A DNA stretch of 64,000 nt from Gemmatimonadota bacterium (lineage in GTDB: Bacteria > Gemmatimonadota > Gemmatimonadetes > Gemmatimonadales > GWC2-71-9), in NCBI GenBank assembly GCA_039586365.1, contig JBDHKN010000009.1, positions 1 to 64,000 on the forward strand, in the 5' to 3' direction. Position numbers: made by a program. Shown here one piece after another: positions 9,001 through 15,000 of this stretch (positions are counted from its first letter, which is position 1; each line of letters opens with the position of its first letter).

Positions 9001-12000
9001 GGGTCGGCCATGTCGCTGATGCTGCCCTACTCAATGACGCTTTCCGTGGTGTGGATTGCCTACCTTGGTGTGTGGCTGATACTGGGACTCGATCCGGGAC
9101 CCGGGGTAACATTGTTCCTGGACTAGGTGGCCGCCGTGGAGGGTCGCGGAGGTGTGACTATTTGACTGACTCCCTACGATATCGAAGGAGAGACCGTCGT
9201 ATGAGAGGGATGTTTCCGGTCCTGTTCGGGCTCCATCTGGTCGCTGCTGGGCTCGCTGTTCCTCAGGAGAAGACCGCCCAGGGAACAGAGCACATGGTGA
9301 GTGCGCCGACCGTTGAAGCCCTGCAAGCGGGTTTGTCGATCCTACAACGGGGCGGCAATGCGATCGACGCGGCGGCTGCCACCGCCTTCGCCCTCATGGT
9401 CACCGACCCGGCAATGAGCAGTGTGGGAGGGAGGTCGCAGATCCTGGTACGCCTGAACGACGGGACGTTGGTCGGCTTCGACGGGGCCACGCAGGCACCG
9501 TTGCGCGTGGATCAGCCAGCCAATCTCGGGCATGGGTACAAGACTGTGCCGATTCCGGGTAGCCCGGCTGCCCTGGAGCAGATGGTACGGGAGCACGGAA
9601 CGCTACCTTTGGCAGAGGTGCTCGAACCCGCCGTGCGGCTGGCAGAAGAGGGATTCCCCATCAAGCAGGATCTGCACGACCAGTTCCGAAGGTACGCCGA
9701 GACGCTGCGTCTCTATCCCGGCACGCGGGAGCATTTCTTCAAGTCAGATGGAACTCCCTATTCAGCGGGAGAACTGTTCCGCCAGCCCGCGTTGTCGAAG
9801 ACGTTGCGTATCATTGCCGAGCAAGGCGCGGACGCCCTCTATCGCGGCGAGTTGGCTCGACTGATGGTAGCCGACATGGAGCGGAACGGCGGACTCGTCA
9901 GGCACGACGACCTCGACCGGTATCAGCCACGAGACGGCGAGATCGTTGAGGGTGAGTACCGGGGGCACCGCATCGTGAGTCGAGGGGGCAATTGCGACGG
10001 AGCGTCGGTCGTGGAGATGCTGCAGATCCTCGAGCACTTCGACGTGGGGGAGTATGCCATCGACGATCCGGAGTACATCCACTTAATGGCGCAGGTCCTG
10101 TACCTCGGCAACGCCGACGAGCACGTGCCCGATTGGCAGCAGGTGTCCAAGGCTCTGGCGGCGCGGCGTGTGCGCGAAATCGATTTGCAGACTGCATTGC
10201 CGGTTCCAGTGAGGCCCGGCGGCGGTCTGGACGGCGAGACGAATCACCTCTCCGTGGTCGATGCTACAGGTAACGCAGTGTCGATTACGCAATCCATTGG
10301 ACCGAATTTCGGGTCCAAAGCGGCCAGCCCGGAATTGGGCTTCTTGTACGCGTACAGCTACGACATGAACGACGATCCGATCCCGTACCAGCGCGAGAAG
10401 ACAAGCCAGTCGCCGACCATGGTGTTGCGGGAGGACATGCCATTCATCGTGGTGGGGTCGGCAGGCAGCAGCCGGATTCCAGGTTCCATCATGCGAGCCA
10501 TCGTAAATGTCATCGATCACGGAATGACACTGGGGGAGGCATTGGCCGCGCGGCGCTGGTTCATCTATGAGAACGAACTCCGGATCGAGGTGACAGACCT
10601 TGCGGAATCGACTTTGGGTTCGCTCCGAGACTACGGCTACACGCTGCGTACCTACGACGGATTGGACAGCTACTTCGCCAGCGTCCACGCCGTCATGTTC
10701 GACCGCTCAGCCGGAATTCTGCACGGGGCCGCCGACCCGAGGGACTTTGGAGCGGCCGGAGGGCGCTAGTCACGGGAGCCGTGAGCTCCACGGTCGGCCT
10801 CAGGTCGCAGCCGAGTGGGCCCCCGGCCGAGACGTTTCACGTGCGGCGAGCTAGCTCGGCGTTTGTACCTGTCACGGCTGCTCTCCGCGTCATGCTCGAC
10901 AGTAGCTCGTTCGGGGTCGCTCCGGACCAGTGCACCCGCAAGACCGTCACATTGGCTCCGTCCCTAGCGCCGTGCAGCGGGCCTGACAGTGCCGCACCCA
11001 GACTGGGATACAGAATGAAGAAGCTACGCGAGGTCCTTCAATTGATGTCATCCTTTCTTGCCTTCGAAGCACGACCCAATTGGTATGGCGCTCAATCAAG
11101 ACACACCAAGTCCCGCCACGAGCCTACCAGCCCTTTTCCCAGCGCTAGGCGCATGTGTTAGAGGACACCGATTCGCGATTTAGTGGGGACCTGGGAGTTC
11201 CTGGGGCCCCTTTTCTCCGCAGGCTGCGTCATTTCGCGTGCGGTTCCGGGGTAACAACTGAAGTTGGTGACACCGGATTGTATCATGCTGTGCGGCGATT
11301 CTTTGAGGCGTTCGACGATGAGCGTGAAGACCACCATGTATCTGTCTCGCTGATGCCGATACCCGATGGCTATGCAGTGACACAGCCGGGGGAACGGACT
11401 GTAGTGTGTGACTCAACTTCAGATGCAATAGCCGCTTATGAGTTTGCCGTTACAAACAACCTCCTCAGAGGCTGCGATCACGTTCAGATCCACTCGTCGG
11501 GCTCAGTCCTAAACGACCGAGCCGTTCTGGCTTTGGGGGCATCGGGCGCGGGAAAGTCCAGTCTTGCACTGGCGTGGCTAGCTGCGGGTTACCCCACTCT
11601 GGGAGACGACGTCGTGCATCTCGCTGCCGACGGTCGCGCGCTTCCCTTCAAGCGACTGTTCAAGGTCTCTCCCGAGATGCTGCAACTCGTGGGAATAGAT
11701 CCGGCCACAACGCCATTCTGGAATGCGGAATGCGAAGAGGCATGGTACGATCCCGACGACGCGGCGGGTTGGGCAGACACAGCTCAAGTGGAATTGGTAG
11801 CGCTGTGTCGCAGGCAGGTCGGCGCCCGGCTGTCCGTTCGACCAGTCGATCGCACCGCCGGACTCAATGCTCTCATGCATAGCCTGATGGAGACGTGCCG
11901 CTGTGCAGAGAATAGCCTCGATATTCTGGTGGAGGTCGTCAAGCACGCTCGCGTGGTTGAGGTCACCTTCGAGTCGGCTTTGCCAGCCGCAGCAGCCATC

Positions 12001-15000
12001 ACAGAATACCTGCAATGACAGTTGAGGTAGCTCGGTCGTTCGCGCAAATCCTCGCGCGGTCCGCGGCAGAACTCGGGAGCCGGGATCCAGGTGCTGGGAA
12101 CCGGCTGGCCGCGGGCTTCGGGATCCTGGGGTTCCTTGCTCGCAATACCGGCGATGGGCGGGACGAAGCACTGGAGGGCGCCAGACTACTTGCCGGGATT
12201 ATCGAGTCTACGCTGTTCGAAGCGGCGGTTCAGATCTCGCGCGCGCTGTCGGTTGGGACGGTACCGCATTTCTTCGTGAAGGGGATCGCCCTGTCCGGTC
12301 GAGCGTACCGGTCCGGCGACCGAGAAATGGCTGACATCGACCTGCACGTGATGCCTAGCCTGTGGTCCAGAGCAGTCAATATCCTGAGCGATCTGGGCTA
12401 CACATTGCTGCCGCCCGAAGAACAAGACGGACCCGCAGCTCTGCGAGCTGGAGTAGCGCTGCAAAGAGGCTCAGCGGGTTCGGAGATCACCGACATTGCA
12501 GTGGACCTCAGATGGGGCCTGGATCCGGTGAACCGATTGTTGCCACGGCCCGATCTGCCCGTCCCGCAGACTGTCTGGAGAGACCTCGATCGGACAGGAC
12601 CGATACCGGTGCCGTCCGATCACCATCACGCTGCGCTGATCGTTCACCACCTAGTCCATCACGACATGTTGCACGTTCGCGGCCTACTGGATCTAGCGCT
12701 GCTATGGAGTCGACTGTTACCCGAAGGTGGCAGGAAGTTCGAAGACTTGGCGCGCGAACTCGGGGTGCTGCGGGCTTCACGAATGCTGGGAAAGGTGCTG
12801 GTGAAACACTTCGATCTCTCACCGTGCGGACTGGAAGCTCCACCGGACGATGTGAGAAGTCGCAGGGCCCTGGCACTGCTCGAACCAGTACGTTGGTGCT
12901 GCTGGGCCGCGCGCGCCAGTGAGAGCGAGTTTGTGGAGATCACGTGGCTGCGCGTTCGGAGACGGTTACTGTTTCTCGACAGCTTGCGGTCAGTGCCGGC
13001 TCTGGTACAGGACGCGGTGCTTCCGCCCAGGGAGTACCTGCGTTGGCGCTGGCCGTATTCGAGATCGGCGGCCACAGCCTTGGGCCGGCATCTCAGTCGA
13101 GTGATTGCGAAGACTTTCGTGCGCTAGAGTCGCAGGGCTCGTTCTTGCCCGGCATGAAGCGGTTTCCTAGTTTGCGGCATGACCTCATCAACCTCTGACG
13201 TGGGTCCCAAGGGCCGTTCTGACGTGGTCTTCCGGCAACTCGATGATGGATGGGTGTTGTTTGACCCACGCGCGACGAAGCTTCATGCTTTGAACCTGTC
13301 CGCGGCGCTCGTGTGGGCGCACTGTGATGGCGGGTACGATGCAGACGGAATTGCCCAGGCACTCGCTGCATCGTTCGACCCGCCGGTTTCCATGTCCCGG
13401 GCCCGACAGGACGTCGACGCAACTCTGAAACGGTTTCGAGCAGCCGGACTCCTCGAGCCGAAGTGACTTAGTGCAGTACTATCGCGATCTCTTGGCCCAG
13501 GTGCCGCGGATAGAGGCGTTCCGTGCGGCGATCCGTCGCGTGGTCCGACCGGACGACCGTGTACTGGAGGTGGGCACCGGATTGGGTACCTACGCCTTTT
13601 TCGCGGCTGACGCGGGCGCCGCGCGCGTGTGGGCGGTGGAAGGGAATGCGGTCGTGCACGTGGCCGAGACGATCGCGCGATTGAACGGTTATGGCGGGAA
13701 GATTGACTTCATGCGAGGCTGGATACCGGAGGTCCAGTTACCCGAGCGTGCCACGGTTCTGATTTTTGAGGATTTCCCGGCCCGGCTGCTGGACAGCAGA
13801 ACCTTCACCTTGCTCAGGAATCTGCATGAGTCATATCTCGAGGCTGGTGCCCGCGTGGTCCCGGCGAAGGCCCAGTTGTTCTTGGCACCAGTTGGTTTCG
13901 CGATGTCCGTTGATCTGCTGGGTGAGGCAGATGACGTAGCGTACGGGATCGACTGGAAACCGAGTCGGGAGTATTGGGCGAATACGCCGCACCATACCGC
14001 CGTACCCGGACACGCCGTAGCTGGCGATCCGGTGGCTATTGGAGAGATCGACTTCGGCCTCCACCCGGATGCTGGGGTCTTGGGCGGCGAGGCCAGCTGG
14101 ATCTGGGACCATGATGTCGTGGTTCATGGCCTGGCCTACTGGTTCGACTTGGATCTTGGTGGAGATCAGCACCTGTCCAACGCACCCGGGGCCGAGCCGG
14201 CTTCTTGGGGCCAACTCCTGCTGTCCATCGACTCACCCATTACGGTAGCTGCGGGGGCGGAACTGCGAGCGGCGGTGGCCTGTGACAACTTCCCAGACGG
14301 TGCGCCTGGCTGGCTCAGGTGGAGTGCCAAGACTGCCGCGATGAGCGGTGGAGGCCACGAGTTCGCAGCGAGGCCGGCATCGTTCGCTGACCTCTACAAC
14401 CAATCACCCGACGCCGTGCCGCGTTTGAGCGCGCAGGGGGAGCTGGAGCTGCAAGTAATGCGGCTCACAGACGGGAAGCGGACAATATGCCAGATTGCAG
14501 AGGAAGTGCGCCGGGTGCAGCCGCGATTGAGAGAGCTCGATGCCCAGCGCCTTGTGGTGCGCATGTTGGCGGGGAAACTTGAACAGCCTGCGTGGCGTGA
14601 TGTTGCCGAGGCAGGAGGTTGAGGAATGTCGCAGGAAGATAGACGAGCCTTTCTCAAGAAGCTGGCCAAAGGAACAGTTTACGCCGCTCCGGTGGTGCAT
14701 TCGCTGGCGGCACCGCTCGACCTCGTGGGGCAGGGTAAATCGTCTGAACACAAGCGCGAACGCGGGAGCCGGGCAGCGACGGCGTCCCCCGGCGGGAGCA
14801 GCGTTACTCAGCAGACGGACATCGGTGCTCCGCCGCCGGGGCAGCAACCGCCGCCGGGGCAGCCTAACCGGCCGCCATTCCAGCGATAGTTCCAGGAGCC
14901 CTCGATGGAGTTCTGGGGCTCGCTACAACTTGATATCTGCCGTGCTCCCTCAGCGGGCTGTCGGGCGGGGGGAGTTGCCGGAGGTGCCGCCCGCCATTCC

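What a model noticed while it worked through the whole genome (the two positions that open the first line are those of the whole stretch)
11155..14889. Eukaryote-type protein arginine methyltransferase (PRMT) inside a PqqD/HprK-related peptide-maturation cluster
Four co-directional genes encode a weak HprK-related kinase A homologue (g04116), an NTP_transf_5 nucleotidyltransferase (g04117), the PqqD-family chaperone of the 'HPr-rel-A system' (g04118) and, 4 nt further, a 383-aa PRMT-fold methyltransferase (g04119) whose best matches are animal PRMT6; a small Tat-signal-like, Pro/Gln/Arg-rich ORF (g04120, 87 aa) follows after 3 nt. I read the set as a RiPP-like pathway in which a leader-binding PqqD protein presents a peptide or small protein to a kinase, a nucleotidyltransferase and an arginine methyltransferase, g04120 being the candidate substrate. 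Arginine methylation by a PRMT in a bacterial peptide-maturation system has not been described and w [...]
Evidence so far: ncbifam.tsv: g04118 = TIGR04353 HPr-rel-A system PqqD family peptide chaperone (40.3 bits, cut 35). g04119: PRMT_C 133-272 (1.3e-7, 32.1 bits over cut 27), PRMT5_C weak; Swiss-Prot PRMT6 mouse 28.7% over 293 aa, E 8e-21. g04116: TIGR04352 HprK_rel_A 6e-6 (below cut), Hpr_kinase_C 8e-4, Walker motif G-A-S-G-A-G-K-S. g04117 NTP_transf_5. neighbours.tsv: PRMT_C within 2 genes of PqqD in 214 genomes (6 in the order) and of NTP_transf_5 in 254 of 1317 genomes that have both. PRMT_C at mark 0 in 30 of 1362 genomes of the order. Papers: PqqD+arginine methyltransferase+RiPP 0 hits; HPr kinase+PqqD+nucleotidyltransferase+RiPP 3 papers, all on lasso peptides (listing only).
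(Added by a program. Inside this text positions count along the whole contig: contig position 1 is position 1 of the stretch shown here. "Call 12" and the like, gene names such as g00115 and contig names such as C1 are that model's own, and its searches are not shown. The text may have been shortened before it was handed on; [...] marks where a part breaks off. The agent that wrote the report below was given it as the finding of a first reader that could run no searches.)

Follow-up and report, generated by a model that had tools for sequence, protein, structure and literature searches.

The report
Phospho-peptide operon with repurposed PRMT fold
A conserved five-gene bacterial operon most likely phosphorylates and methylates its own small peptide and may export it with a twin-arginine signal; its methylating enzyme has the fold of animal arginine methyltransferases but has lost their arginine-gripping residues, so it probably performs a different, uncharacterised methylation.

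Summary
The five genes are real. They form a conserved cassette (kinase, nucleotidyltransferase, RRE, PRMT-fold methyltransferase, precursor) in Gemmatimonadota and a second phylum. Across 42 loci picked by the methyltransferase: RRE 42/42, precursor 40/40 assessable, kinase 40/42, nucleotidyltransferase 30/42, lasso cyclase 0/42. g04120 looks like a true precursor: an RRxFL…YxxP leader, a signal-peptidase-like site before Gln36, and a variable core with Ser/Thr near its start (38/39). The RiPP reading stands; arginine methylation does not. The enzyme has the PRMT fold (Z 28.6) but lacks the second double-E acid (10/159 keep one) and the THW histidine (0/159), and only 3/39 cores have Arg in their first 12 residues. 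In a control set, PRMT-fold enzymes lacking that acid sit near an HprK-like kinase in 19/21 loci, those keeping it in 5/38. Best reading: a cyclase-less phospho-peptide system that works like the Bacillota LPPs (PMC13381572). A methylation step follows the kinase; its acceptor is unknown, with a methyl ester on the phosphate my single best guess (~30%). Tat export is probable (~55%). No enzyme activity or binding was shown. The scan noted this system before on other DNA.

The parts
11155..12018 (+). HprK-like peptide kinase (g04116); invariant His113, Walker A Gly128-Lys134, Asp151-Asp152; predicted to phosphorylate a Ser near the start of the precursor core
   Evidence: Invariant columns in 33 homologues; profile's best PDB hits are HPr kinases, E 4.7e-9; 30 of 33 hit TIGR04352 at E<=0.001, best E 1.3e-18. 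Function inferred from LppK, PadeK, PsmK
12015..13127 (+). NTP_transf_5 nucleotidyltransferase (g04117), accessory part; Gly90 and Asp107-x-Asp109 conserved
   Evidence: Pfam 63.7 bits; alignment of 27; in 30 of 42 loci; in trans in 3 genomes, only distant hits (E about 1e-10) in 2 genomes of family f6
13179..13466 (+). Discrete PqqD-family RiPP recognition element (g04118); Asn39 and Asp78 align with LppB N33 and D70, which hold the leader Pro and Tyr
   Evidence: profile's best PDB hit is 9X8Z (LppB), E 5.9e-6; contacts from PMC13381572 section 8; residue mapping is my reading of the printed alignment
13471..14622 (+). SAM-dependent PRMT-fold methyltransferase (g04119): Rossmann plus beta-barrel (residues 1-298), Glu100-Asp101 kept, second double-E Glu and THW His lost, N-terminal YxxxY helix absent
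   Evidence: AF2 pLDDT 92.6; Foldseek E 2e-25 to PRMT6; Z 28.6, rmsd 2.8, 290 aligned to PRMT3, best non-PRMT Z 13.4; residue counts
14371..14619 (+). C-terminal three-helix domain of the methyltransferase, like the helical half of a PqqD/RRE but without its beta sheet; absent in 7 Longimicrobiales-side homologues
   Evidence: hhalign to the RRE alignment: prob 49.5, E 1.7e-4; 5 of 55 members hit PqqD; top fold hits PqqD 3G2B (Z 6.2, rmsd 4.2, 55 aligned) and TfuB1 (Z 5.5), within the range of chance for helical domains; truncations
14626..14730 (+). Precursor leader (residues 1-35): Arg6-Arg7-x-Phe-Leu Tat-like motif, Tyr19-x-x-Pro22 RRE motif, Leu-x-Gly before Gln36 as a signal-peptidase-like site
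   Evidence: 139 anchored homologues: RR 136, RR-to-Y spacing 13 in 137, Pro 100%, Ala/Gly-Gln site in 105 with Leu/Ala/Val at -3 in about 95% of these. Cleavage is inferred
14731..14889 (+). Precursor core (residues 36-87): Ser39/Ser40 as predicted phospho-acceptors, then a variable Gly/Met/His/Lys segment and a Pro-rich tail
   Evidence: Ser/Thr at core positions 2-7 in 38 of 39 cassette precursors and within 7 residues after the Gln in 99 of 105; Pro-Trp in 92 and PPP/PPG in 88 of 139 tails

Best explanation
A cyclase-less RiPP cassette making a linear, phosphorylated and methylated peptide. (1) The discrete RRE binds the YxxP motif of the g04120 leader (inferred; contact residues conserved). 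(2) The HprK-like kinase (poly)phosphorylates a Ser near the core start, here Ser39/Ser40 (inferred from LppK). (3) The nucleotidyltransferase optionally extends the phosphate with a nucleotide or sugar (inferred from PsmN; missing in one lineage). (4) The PRMT-fold enzyme methylates the phosphorylated precursor, not an arginine. My odds for the acceptor: phosphate oxygen as a methyl-phosphate cap 0.30; a nearby amine, imidazole or backbone nitrogen with the phosphate as recognition handle 0.35 (spread over several atoms); Arg 0.10; other 0.25. (5) The same leader doubles as a Tat signal and housekeeping signal peptidase I cuts before Gln36 (about 0.55), which would explain the lack of a dedicated peptidase and exporter. 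Shown: gene set, linkage, fold, motif conservation and loss. Inferred: all chemistry, order of steps, export.
For: Linkage 42/42 RRE, 40/40 precursor, 40/42 kinase, 0/42 cyclase. The two loci without a kinase keep close kinase orthologues elsewhere in the genome (E 2e-80, 1e-76). Conserved leader with hypervariable core. RRE is closest to LppB; LPP has the same RRE + HprK + NTase set without cyclase and is phosphorylated on core Ser3 (PMC13381572). Arg-binding residues are lost. Kinase dependence: 19/21 against 5/38, 69/80 lasso-type metagenome loci, and 17/18 of those with 3 kb on both sides. RRE + kinase + precursor also occur without the methyltransferase (L112, L114), so the dependence runs one way. 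Ser/Thr is the only modifiable side chain shared by nearly all cores; one cassette precursor has no Lys, His or Arg in its core (L051). For Tat: RRxFL consensus, uncharged run >=13 in 100/138, TatC in this genome, weak Tat-family hits in 13/49 and 7/49, and 0/18 large lasso-type loci carry this leader.
Against: No activity, product or expression data. The pocket keeps Glu100 (159/159) and Asp101 (152/159), which suits a cationic or N-H acceptor better than a phosphate; the basic Arg105 is in only 123/159. Kinase co-occurrence may be shared descent: loci are kin, not independent. 28/39 cores do hold an Arg somewhere, mostly in the Pro-rich tail. L051 has a second precursor that contains Lys and Arg. 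Against Tat: 38/138 leaders fail the uncharged-run rule; the window's own precursor has no Tat-family match at E<=0.1 and members' hits are weak (best E 4e-4); the fixed RR-to-Y spacing looks like a protein-docking constraint; in the second phylum six precursors printed have KR in place of RR with charged residues after YxxP. L072 has an ABC transporter and L054 an S51 peptidase beside the precursor.
Confidence: 0.6

Rival explanations
1. One reading: the enzyme is a working protein arginine methyltransferase acting on an Arg of g04120 (the twin Arg of the leader or the Arg often seen in the Pro-rich tail).
For: Whole PRMT fold, SAM motifs and first Glu intact; Asp/Glu-poor but Asp108 (108/161) lies next to the lost Glu and might stand in; Ser-Trp instead of His-Trp also occurs in double-E bacterial homologues; RR is nearly invariant; 28/39 cores have some Arg.
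Against: Second double-E acid in 10/159, THW His in 0/159; both glutamates chelate the guanidine (PMC9469100, passages); the YxxxY helix that holds the second Glu is absent; Arg in the first 12 core residues in 3/39, none at all in 11/39; lasso-type kin include a precursor core with no basic residue (L082).
Confidence: 0.1
2. Same RiPP pathway, but RRxFL is only a docking element for the RRE, kinase or methyltransferase. The peptide is not a Tat substrate and is cut or exported by unlinked machinery, or stays in the cytoplasm.
For: RR-to-Y spacing is 13 in 137/139; KR variants with charged middles keep the same spacing; 28% fail the uncharged-run rule.
Against: A Leu/Ala/Val-x-Ala/Gly-Gln site in 105/139; no conserved peptidase or transporter family beside the cassette; the RR segment is no more amphipathic than shuffles (0.40 vs 0.41).
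Confidence: 0.3
3. Not a small-molecule-like natural product but a modification system for a small exported Met/His-rich metal-binding or surface peptide, the modifications acting as a maturation tag.
For: The first 15 core residues are 13% Met; 93/139 have Met and 34/139 His there; 19/139 have Cys; the Pro-rich tail is conserved.
Against: No conserved metal-transport or regulator neighbour; many cores are Lys/Gly-rich with neither Met nor His runs. Compatible with steps 1-5, differing only in purpose.
Confidence: 0.2
4. A decayed lasso cluster or a chance gene row with no dedicated substrate.
For: Related methyltransferases sit in lasso clusters; AsnB-like and weak Transglut_core3 hits exist elsewhere in this 86%-complete genome.
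Against: 0/42 loci have a cyclase; the Tat-type enzymes form their own clade (100/98) apart from the lasso-type clade (100/99); the cassette survives at many chromosomal sites and gene orders and in a second phylum; the precursor is under coding constraint and lacks the lasso YxxPxLxxxG leader.
Confidence: 0.03

Closest known systems
Linear polyphosphorylated peptides (LPP; lppAKBSDN of Paenibacillus alginolyticus; PMC13381572, read: abstract, introduction, results sections 6-8, discussion, term search in text and 6 supplements)
   Same: Discrete RRE, HprK-like kinase, uncharacterised NTP transferase, no cyclase; precursor with conserved YxxP leader and variable core; Ser near the core start; signal-peptidase-type cleavage. 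LppB is the best PDB hit of this RRE family.
   Different: No dedicated SpI peptidase or MsbA-like exporter here; a Tat-like RRxFL in the leader; a different leader consensus; a core PRMT-fold methyltransferase (Methyltransf_25 is near only 7 of 126 LPP peptidases); Gemmatimonadota and a second phylum rather than Bacillota.
Phosphorylated lasso peptides: paeninodin (PadeK), pseudomycoidin (PsmK, PsmN) (PMC8498205, PMC9266682, passages)
   Same: RRE, HprK-like Ser kinase, nucleotidyltransferase acting on the phosphate. Uncharacterised lasso clusters carry a related PRMT-fold enzyme (motif S-D-L/I-R-G) beside the kinase.
   Different: No macrolactam cyclase in 42 loci, no conserved B2 protease or ABC exporter; the acceptor Ser is near the core start, not C-terminal.
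Eukaryotic PRMTs (PRMT6, PRMT3, CARM1) and their bacterial relatives (PMC3417536, passage)
   Same: Rossmann plus beta-barrel fold, SAM motifs, first Glu of the double-E loop.
   Different: Second Glu, THW His and N-terminal YxxxY helix lost; extra C-terminal PqqD-like helical domain; 23-29% identity.
HPr-rel-A system (TIGR04352 kinase, TIGR04353 PqqD chaperone)
   Same: RRE passes the TIGR04353 cut; the kinase's best NCBIfam match is TIGR04352.
   Different: The kinase is far below the cut (25.5 vs 200 bits); the family label gives no chemistry.

Membership tests
Protein arginine methyltransferase | Rossmann plus beta-barrel PRMT fold | tested here: met
   Z 28.6, rmsd 2.8, 290 aligned to PRMT3; top 15 rows all PRMTs; Foldseek E 2e-25
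Protein arginine methyltransferase | SAM-binding motifs (motif I glycines, acidic residue after strand 2, N-terminal Arg) | tested here: met
   Gly35, Gly39 161/161; position 57 Asp/Glu 161/161; Arg13 156/157
Protein arginine methyltransferase | Both glutamates of the double-E loop | tested here: not met
   First 159/159; second acidic in 10/159, Ser109 in this protein
Protein arginine methyltransferase | THW-loop histidine (type I; that PRMT5 has Ser here is recalled) | tested here: not met
   0/159, Ser in 133
Protein arginine methyltransferase | Methyl transfer to arginine | not testable with these tools
   Needs an assay; no conserved Arg in the core start
LPP RiPP | Discrete RRE + HprK-like kinase + NTP transferase, no cyclase | tested here: met
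LPP RiPP | YxxP leader, variable core, Ser near the core start | tested here: met
LPP RiPP | Dedicated SpI-like peptidase and MsbA-like transporter in the cluster | tested here: not met
   None among the genes flanking the cassette here; no such conserved neighbour family; neighbours were not all scanned against Pfam
LPP RiPP | Leader consensus YxxPxVLxHQxIxFETxxS | tested here: not met
   Only YxxP is shared
LPP RiPP | Polyphosphorylation of the core Ser | not testable with these tools
   Needs MS
Lasso peptide cluster | Asparagine-synthetase-like cyclase in the cluster | tested here: not met
   0/42, against 5/5 in the lasso-type loci from which the profile was partly built
Lasso peptide cluster | B2 protease | tested here: inconclusive
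   None in the window cassette; one weak PF13471 hit (25.6 bits) on another contig with no cassette gene near it; not scanned in all 42 loci
Tat substrate | Twin-arginine consensus RRxFL near the N-terminus | tested here: met
   RR 136/139, Phe at +3 120/139 (anchoring on a basic pair biases this count, 6 of 145 did not anchor)
Tat substrate | Uncharged hydrophobic region and family-model score | tested here: inconclusive
   Run >=13 in 100/138 (rule recalled from TATFIND); weak model hits only, none for the window protein
Tat substrate | TatC-dependent export | not testable with these tools
   TatC is present; export needs an experiment
HPr-rel-A system | TIGR04352 kinase above cut | tested here: not met
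   25.5 vs 200 bits
HPr-rel-A system | TIGR04353 chaperone above cut | tested here: met
   40.3 vs 35 bits

The most novel reading that the evidence does not exclude
A new RiPP class in which one leader is both the RRE docking site and the Tat export signal, so the cluster needs no peptidase or exporter of its own, and in which a PRMT-fold enzyme has been retooled to methyl-cap the (poly)phosphate that the HprK-like kinase builds on serine. This would be an O-methylation by a fold known for arginine N-methylation, shared with a large unstudied family in kinase-bearing lasso clusters.
Probability: 0.18. Interest if true: 0.85.

Novelty: new variant of a known kind. Interest (0 to 1): 0.62.

Why it matters
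It supplies a complete five-gene test case, with a natural library of more than a hundred precursors, for two open points. First, what the kinase-linked PRMT-fold methyltransferases of bacteria do: they also sit in many lasso clusters, and their altered pocket points to non-arginine chemistry on a fold studied mainly as an arginine methylase. Second, whether a RiPP leader can double as a Tat signal. It may also supply the partner that the LPP authors supposed was missing for their silent nucleotidyltransferase (PMC13381572). A leader-guided enzyme set that tolerates hypervariable cores would be useful for peptide engineering.

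Tried and rejected
No match in viral contigs for the single protein. Promoter and terminator scans were at chance level. 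Amphipathic docking helix for the RR segment: moment 0.40 vs 0.41 in shuffles, not supported. Arg105 as a universal phosphate binder: only 123/159, and lost in family f6, so rejected as universal. Sister relationship of Tat-type and lasso-type enzymes: unresolved (88/30, only two outgroup rows). The three small genes downstream (15436-16394) are not part of the cassette: separated by insertions in some loci and absent in other families. No NRPS N-methyltransferase was listed among the 50 fold rows shown, which does not exclude one. Five long proteins in the precursor search were repeat-rich false hits (3 of 5 inspected). One phylum-search hit (L113) is an ordinary Tat-signalled binding protein. 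The atlas gave no named family for the precursor. Literature searches that found nothing on this system: 0 papers; 0; 0; 1, unrelated; 1, listing only; 3, lasso; 2, listing only; 20 of 344 listed. Subscription papers, including Aravind 2011, are outside the library.

Full report
Observation. Named relatives are Gemmatimonadota.

The cassette is conserved. I took loci by the methyltransferase alone. Of 34 I dropped two weak non-family hits (L063, L064). Of 20 regions I dropped three duplicates (L065-L067) and treated seven distant ones apart (L078-L084). In the remaining 42, profile searches found the RRE directly upstream in 42 of 42, the precursor downstream in 40 of 40 that were not cut by a contig end, the kinase within about 8 kb in 40 of 42, the nucleotidyltransferase in 30 of 42 and a lasso cyclase in 0 of 42 (the profiles were built largely from these loci). 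The two genomes without a local kinase hold close orthologues elsewhere. The nucleotidyltransferase is in trans in three genomes and only distantly matched in two genomes of family f6. Gene order and chromosomal site vary. The family is patchy: 14 of 301 class genomes match the enzyme at E<1e-50, and 19 of 401 phylum genomes match the precursor profile, one of them a false hit and one the unpublished G029; no main claim rests on unpublished genomes. The same RRE, kinase, methyltransferase, precursor and NTase set occurs in nine loci of a second phylum that the tool does not name (drawn around G500, whose contig title reads Ca. Brocadiaceae). This genome has one copy of each gene.

g04120 is a precursor. 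It shows coding constraint and RBS-like starts. A profile search gave 189 hits at E<=0.001; of the best 150, 145 were short and 139 anchored on the leader. The leader is rigid: RR in 136, Phe at +3 in 120, Tyr/Phe/Trp-x-x-Pro exactly 13 residues on in 137, Thr/Ser seven after the Tyr in 96%, and an Ala/Gly-Gln site in 105, with Leu, Ala or Val at -3 in about 95% of these. After it the sequence is hypervariable and rich in Gly, Met, Ser, Lys and His, then ends in a Pro-rich tail. YxxP is the motif read by discrete RREs (PMC13381572). The RRE profile's best solved relative is LppB, and the Asn and Asp that hold the leader Pro and Tyr there align with invariant Asn39 and near-invariant Asp78 here; the LppB Phe74 position is not conserved. 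Binding itself was not modelled.

The methyltransferase has the PRMT fold but not the arginine clamp. The model is confident (pLDDT 92.6) and matches PRMTs at Z 23-28.6 against 13.4 for the best other methyltransferase. SAM motifs are intact. Both double-E glutamates chelate the guanidine in PRMTs (PMC9469100). Here the first is invariant (159 of 159 distinct sequences), the second is acidic in 10 of 159, and the THW His is in 0 of 159; the N-terminal YxxxY helix is missing. The substrate agrees: Arg is in the first 12 core residues in 3 of 39 cassette precursors and absent from the whole core in 11 of 39. Against this reading, 28 of 39 have an Arg somewhere, mostly in the tail, and Asp108 might partly replace the lost Glu. 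The unexplained C-terminal 83 residues resemble the helical half of a PqqD domain by four weak signals; none is decisive, and seven homologues lack the domain.

What it methylates. A related clade (motif S-D-L/I-R-G, second acid also lost) sits in lasso clusters: 5 of 5 Gemmatimonadota loci have cyclase and kinase, and 69 of 80 metagenome loci have a kinase, 17 of the 18 with 3 kb on both sides. As a control I fetched 56 of 66 matches from three other phyla, leaving out 10 partial or weakest ones, plus three from this class. Enzymes without the second acid have a kinase nearby in 19 of 21 loci; those with it in 5 of 38, and 24 of those 38 keep the THW His. Kin are not independent, so these are counts, not a test. 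Kinase, RRE and precursor also occur without the methyltransferase (L112, L114). Ser/Thr near the core start is the one shared side chain (38 of 39). I infer that the enzyme acts after the kinase. A methyl ester on the phosphate is the most economical single acceptor (0.30; kinase-plus-methyltransferase capping as in WbdD is recalled, not tested), but the retained Glu100-Asp101 fits a nitrogen acceptor better (0.35 over several atoms).

Export. The leader reads as a Tat signal: RRxFL, an uncharged run of 13 or more in 100 of 138 (rule recalled), a signal-peptidase-like site, TatC in the genome, and no conserved peptidase or exporter beside the cassette (single exceptions L054 and L072). The lasso-type clusters lack this leader (0 of 18). 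Against: weak family scores, the fixed spacing, and KR leaders with charged middles in the second phylum. I put Tat export at about 0.55.

Comparison. It works like the LPP family: same RRE, kinase and NTase, no cyclase, Ser near the core start. It is not a member, since it lacks the dedicated SpI and exporter and the leader consensus; the LPP text never mentions methylation, Tat or this phylum, and Methyltransf_25 lies near 7 of 126 LPP peptidases. It is not a lasso cluster, and not a PRMT by active site. Bacterial PRMT relatives in peptide-metabolite operons are known (PMC3417536), and a bacterial arginine methyltransferase SznE is named in PMC12637814 (passage). My searches found no paper on this cassette. 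I read only passages of PMC8498205, PMC9266682, PMC10028931 and PMC13430611. The scan's own notes describe this system and its lasso-type kin on other DNA; one led me to the LPP paper.

Verdict. A real, conserved, apparently unstudied RiPP-like cassette; a new variant of the linear phospho-peptide kind, with a retooled PRMT fold and a probable dual-use leader. The headline claim of arginine methylation is unlikely. Interest 0.62.

Noticed in passing
L034:7992-11805: The methyltransferase gene is split: its N-terminal part runs on into a beta-propeller (DUF5128) frame of 653 aa, and its C-terminal part lies 2.4 kb later, directly before the precursor. An insertion or a misassembly.
   Followed up: no
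L112:6049-9098; L114:8898-11246: RRE + kinase + Tat-like precursor without the methyltransferase; L114 is followed by a GT2 glycosyltransferase. Possibly a glycosylating variant.
   Followed up: partly
L266-L272: In a second phylum the precursors have Lys-Arg in place of Arg-Arg, a Pro-Thr-Gly-Pro-Pro segment and a poly-Lys run, within the same cassette.
   Followed up: partly
L051:9165-9695; L283; L289: Two tandem precursors with different cores; some cores carry a Cys-Asp-Tyr-Phe-Pro-x-x-Cys segment or long Gly-Met repeats.
   Followed up: no
L078-L082, L132-L211: Large uncharacterised lasso subfamily with kinase, PRMT-fold enzyme and NTase; precursors seen often end in Lys/Arg/Met-Thr.
   Followed up: partly
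window 15436-16394: Three small conserved genes without a Pfam match above cut (81, 84, 137 aa; the last weakly LeuA_dimer-like, with three paralogues in this genome) precede the SLT/LysM gene in many Gemmatimonadales.
   Followed up: no
window 4912-6585: 557-aa ORF with no Pfam match at E<=0.1, between a peptide ABC transporter and an AbgT transporter.
   Followed up: no
L256-L311: Stand-alone bacterial PRMT homologues with both glutamates, many with THW, are frequent in the phylum around G500 (51 of 351 genomes match the profile, including the kinase-linked types); candidates for true bacterial arginine methyltransferases.
   Followed up: partly
L285, L297, L299, L305: Four enzymes that keep the second acid and still lie beside a kinase (three also an RRE); possible intermediates, or true arginine-methylating RiPP enzymes.
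   Followed up: no
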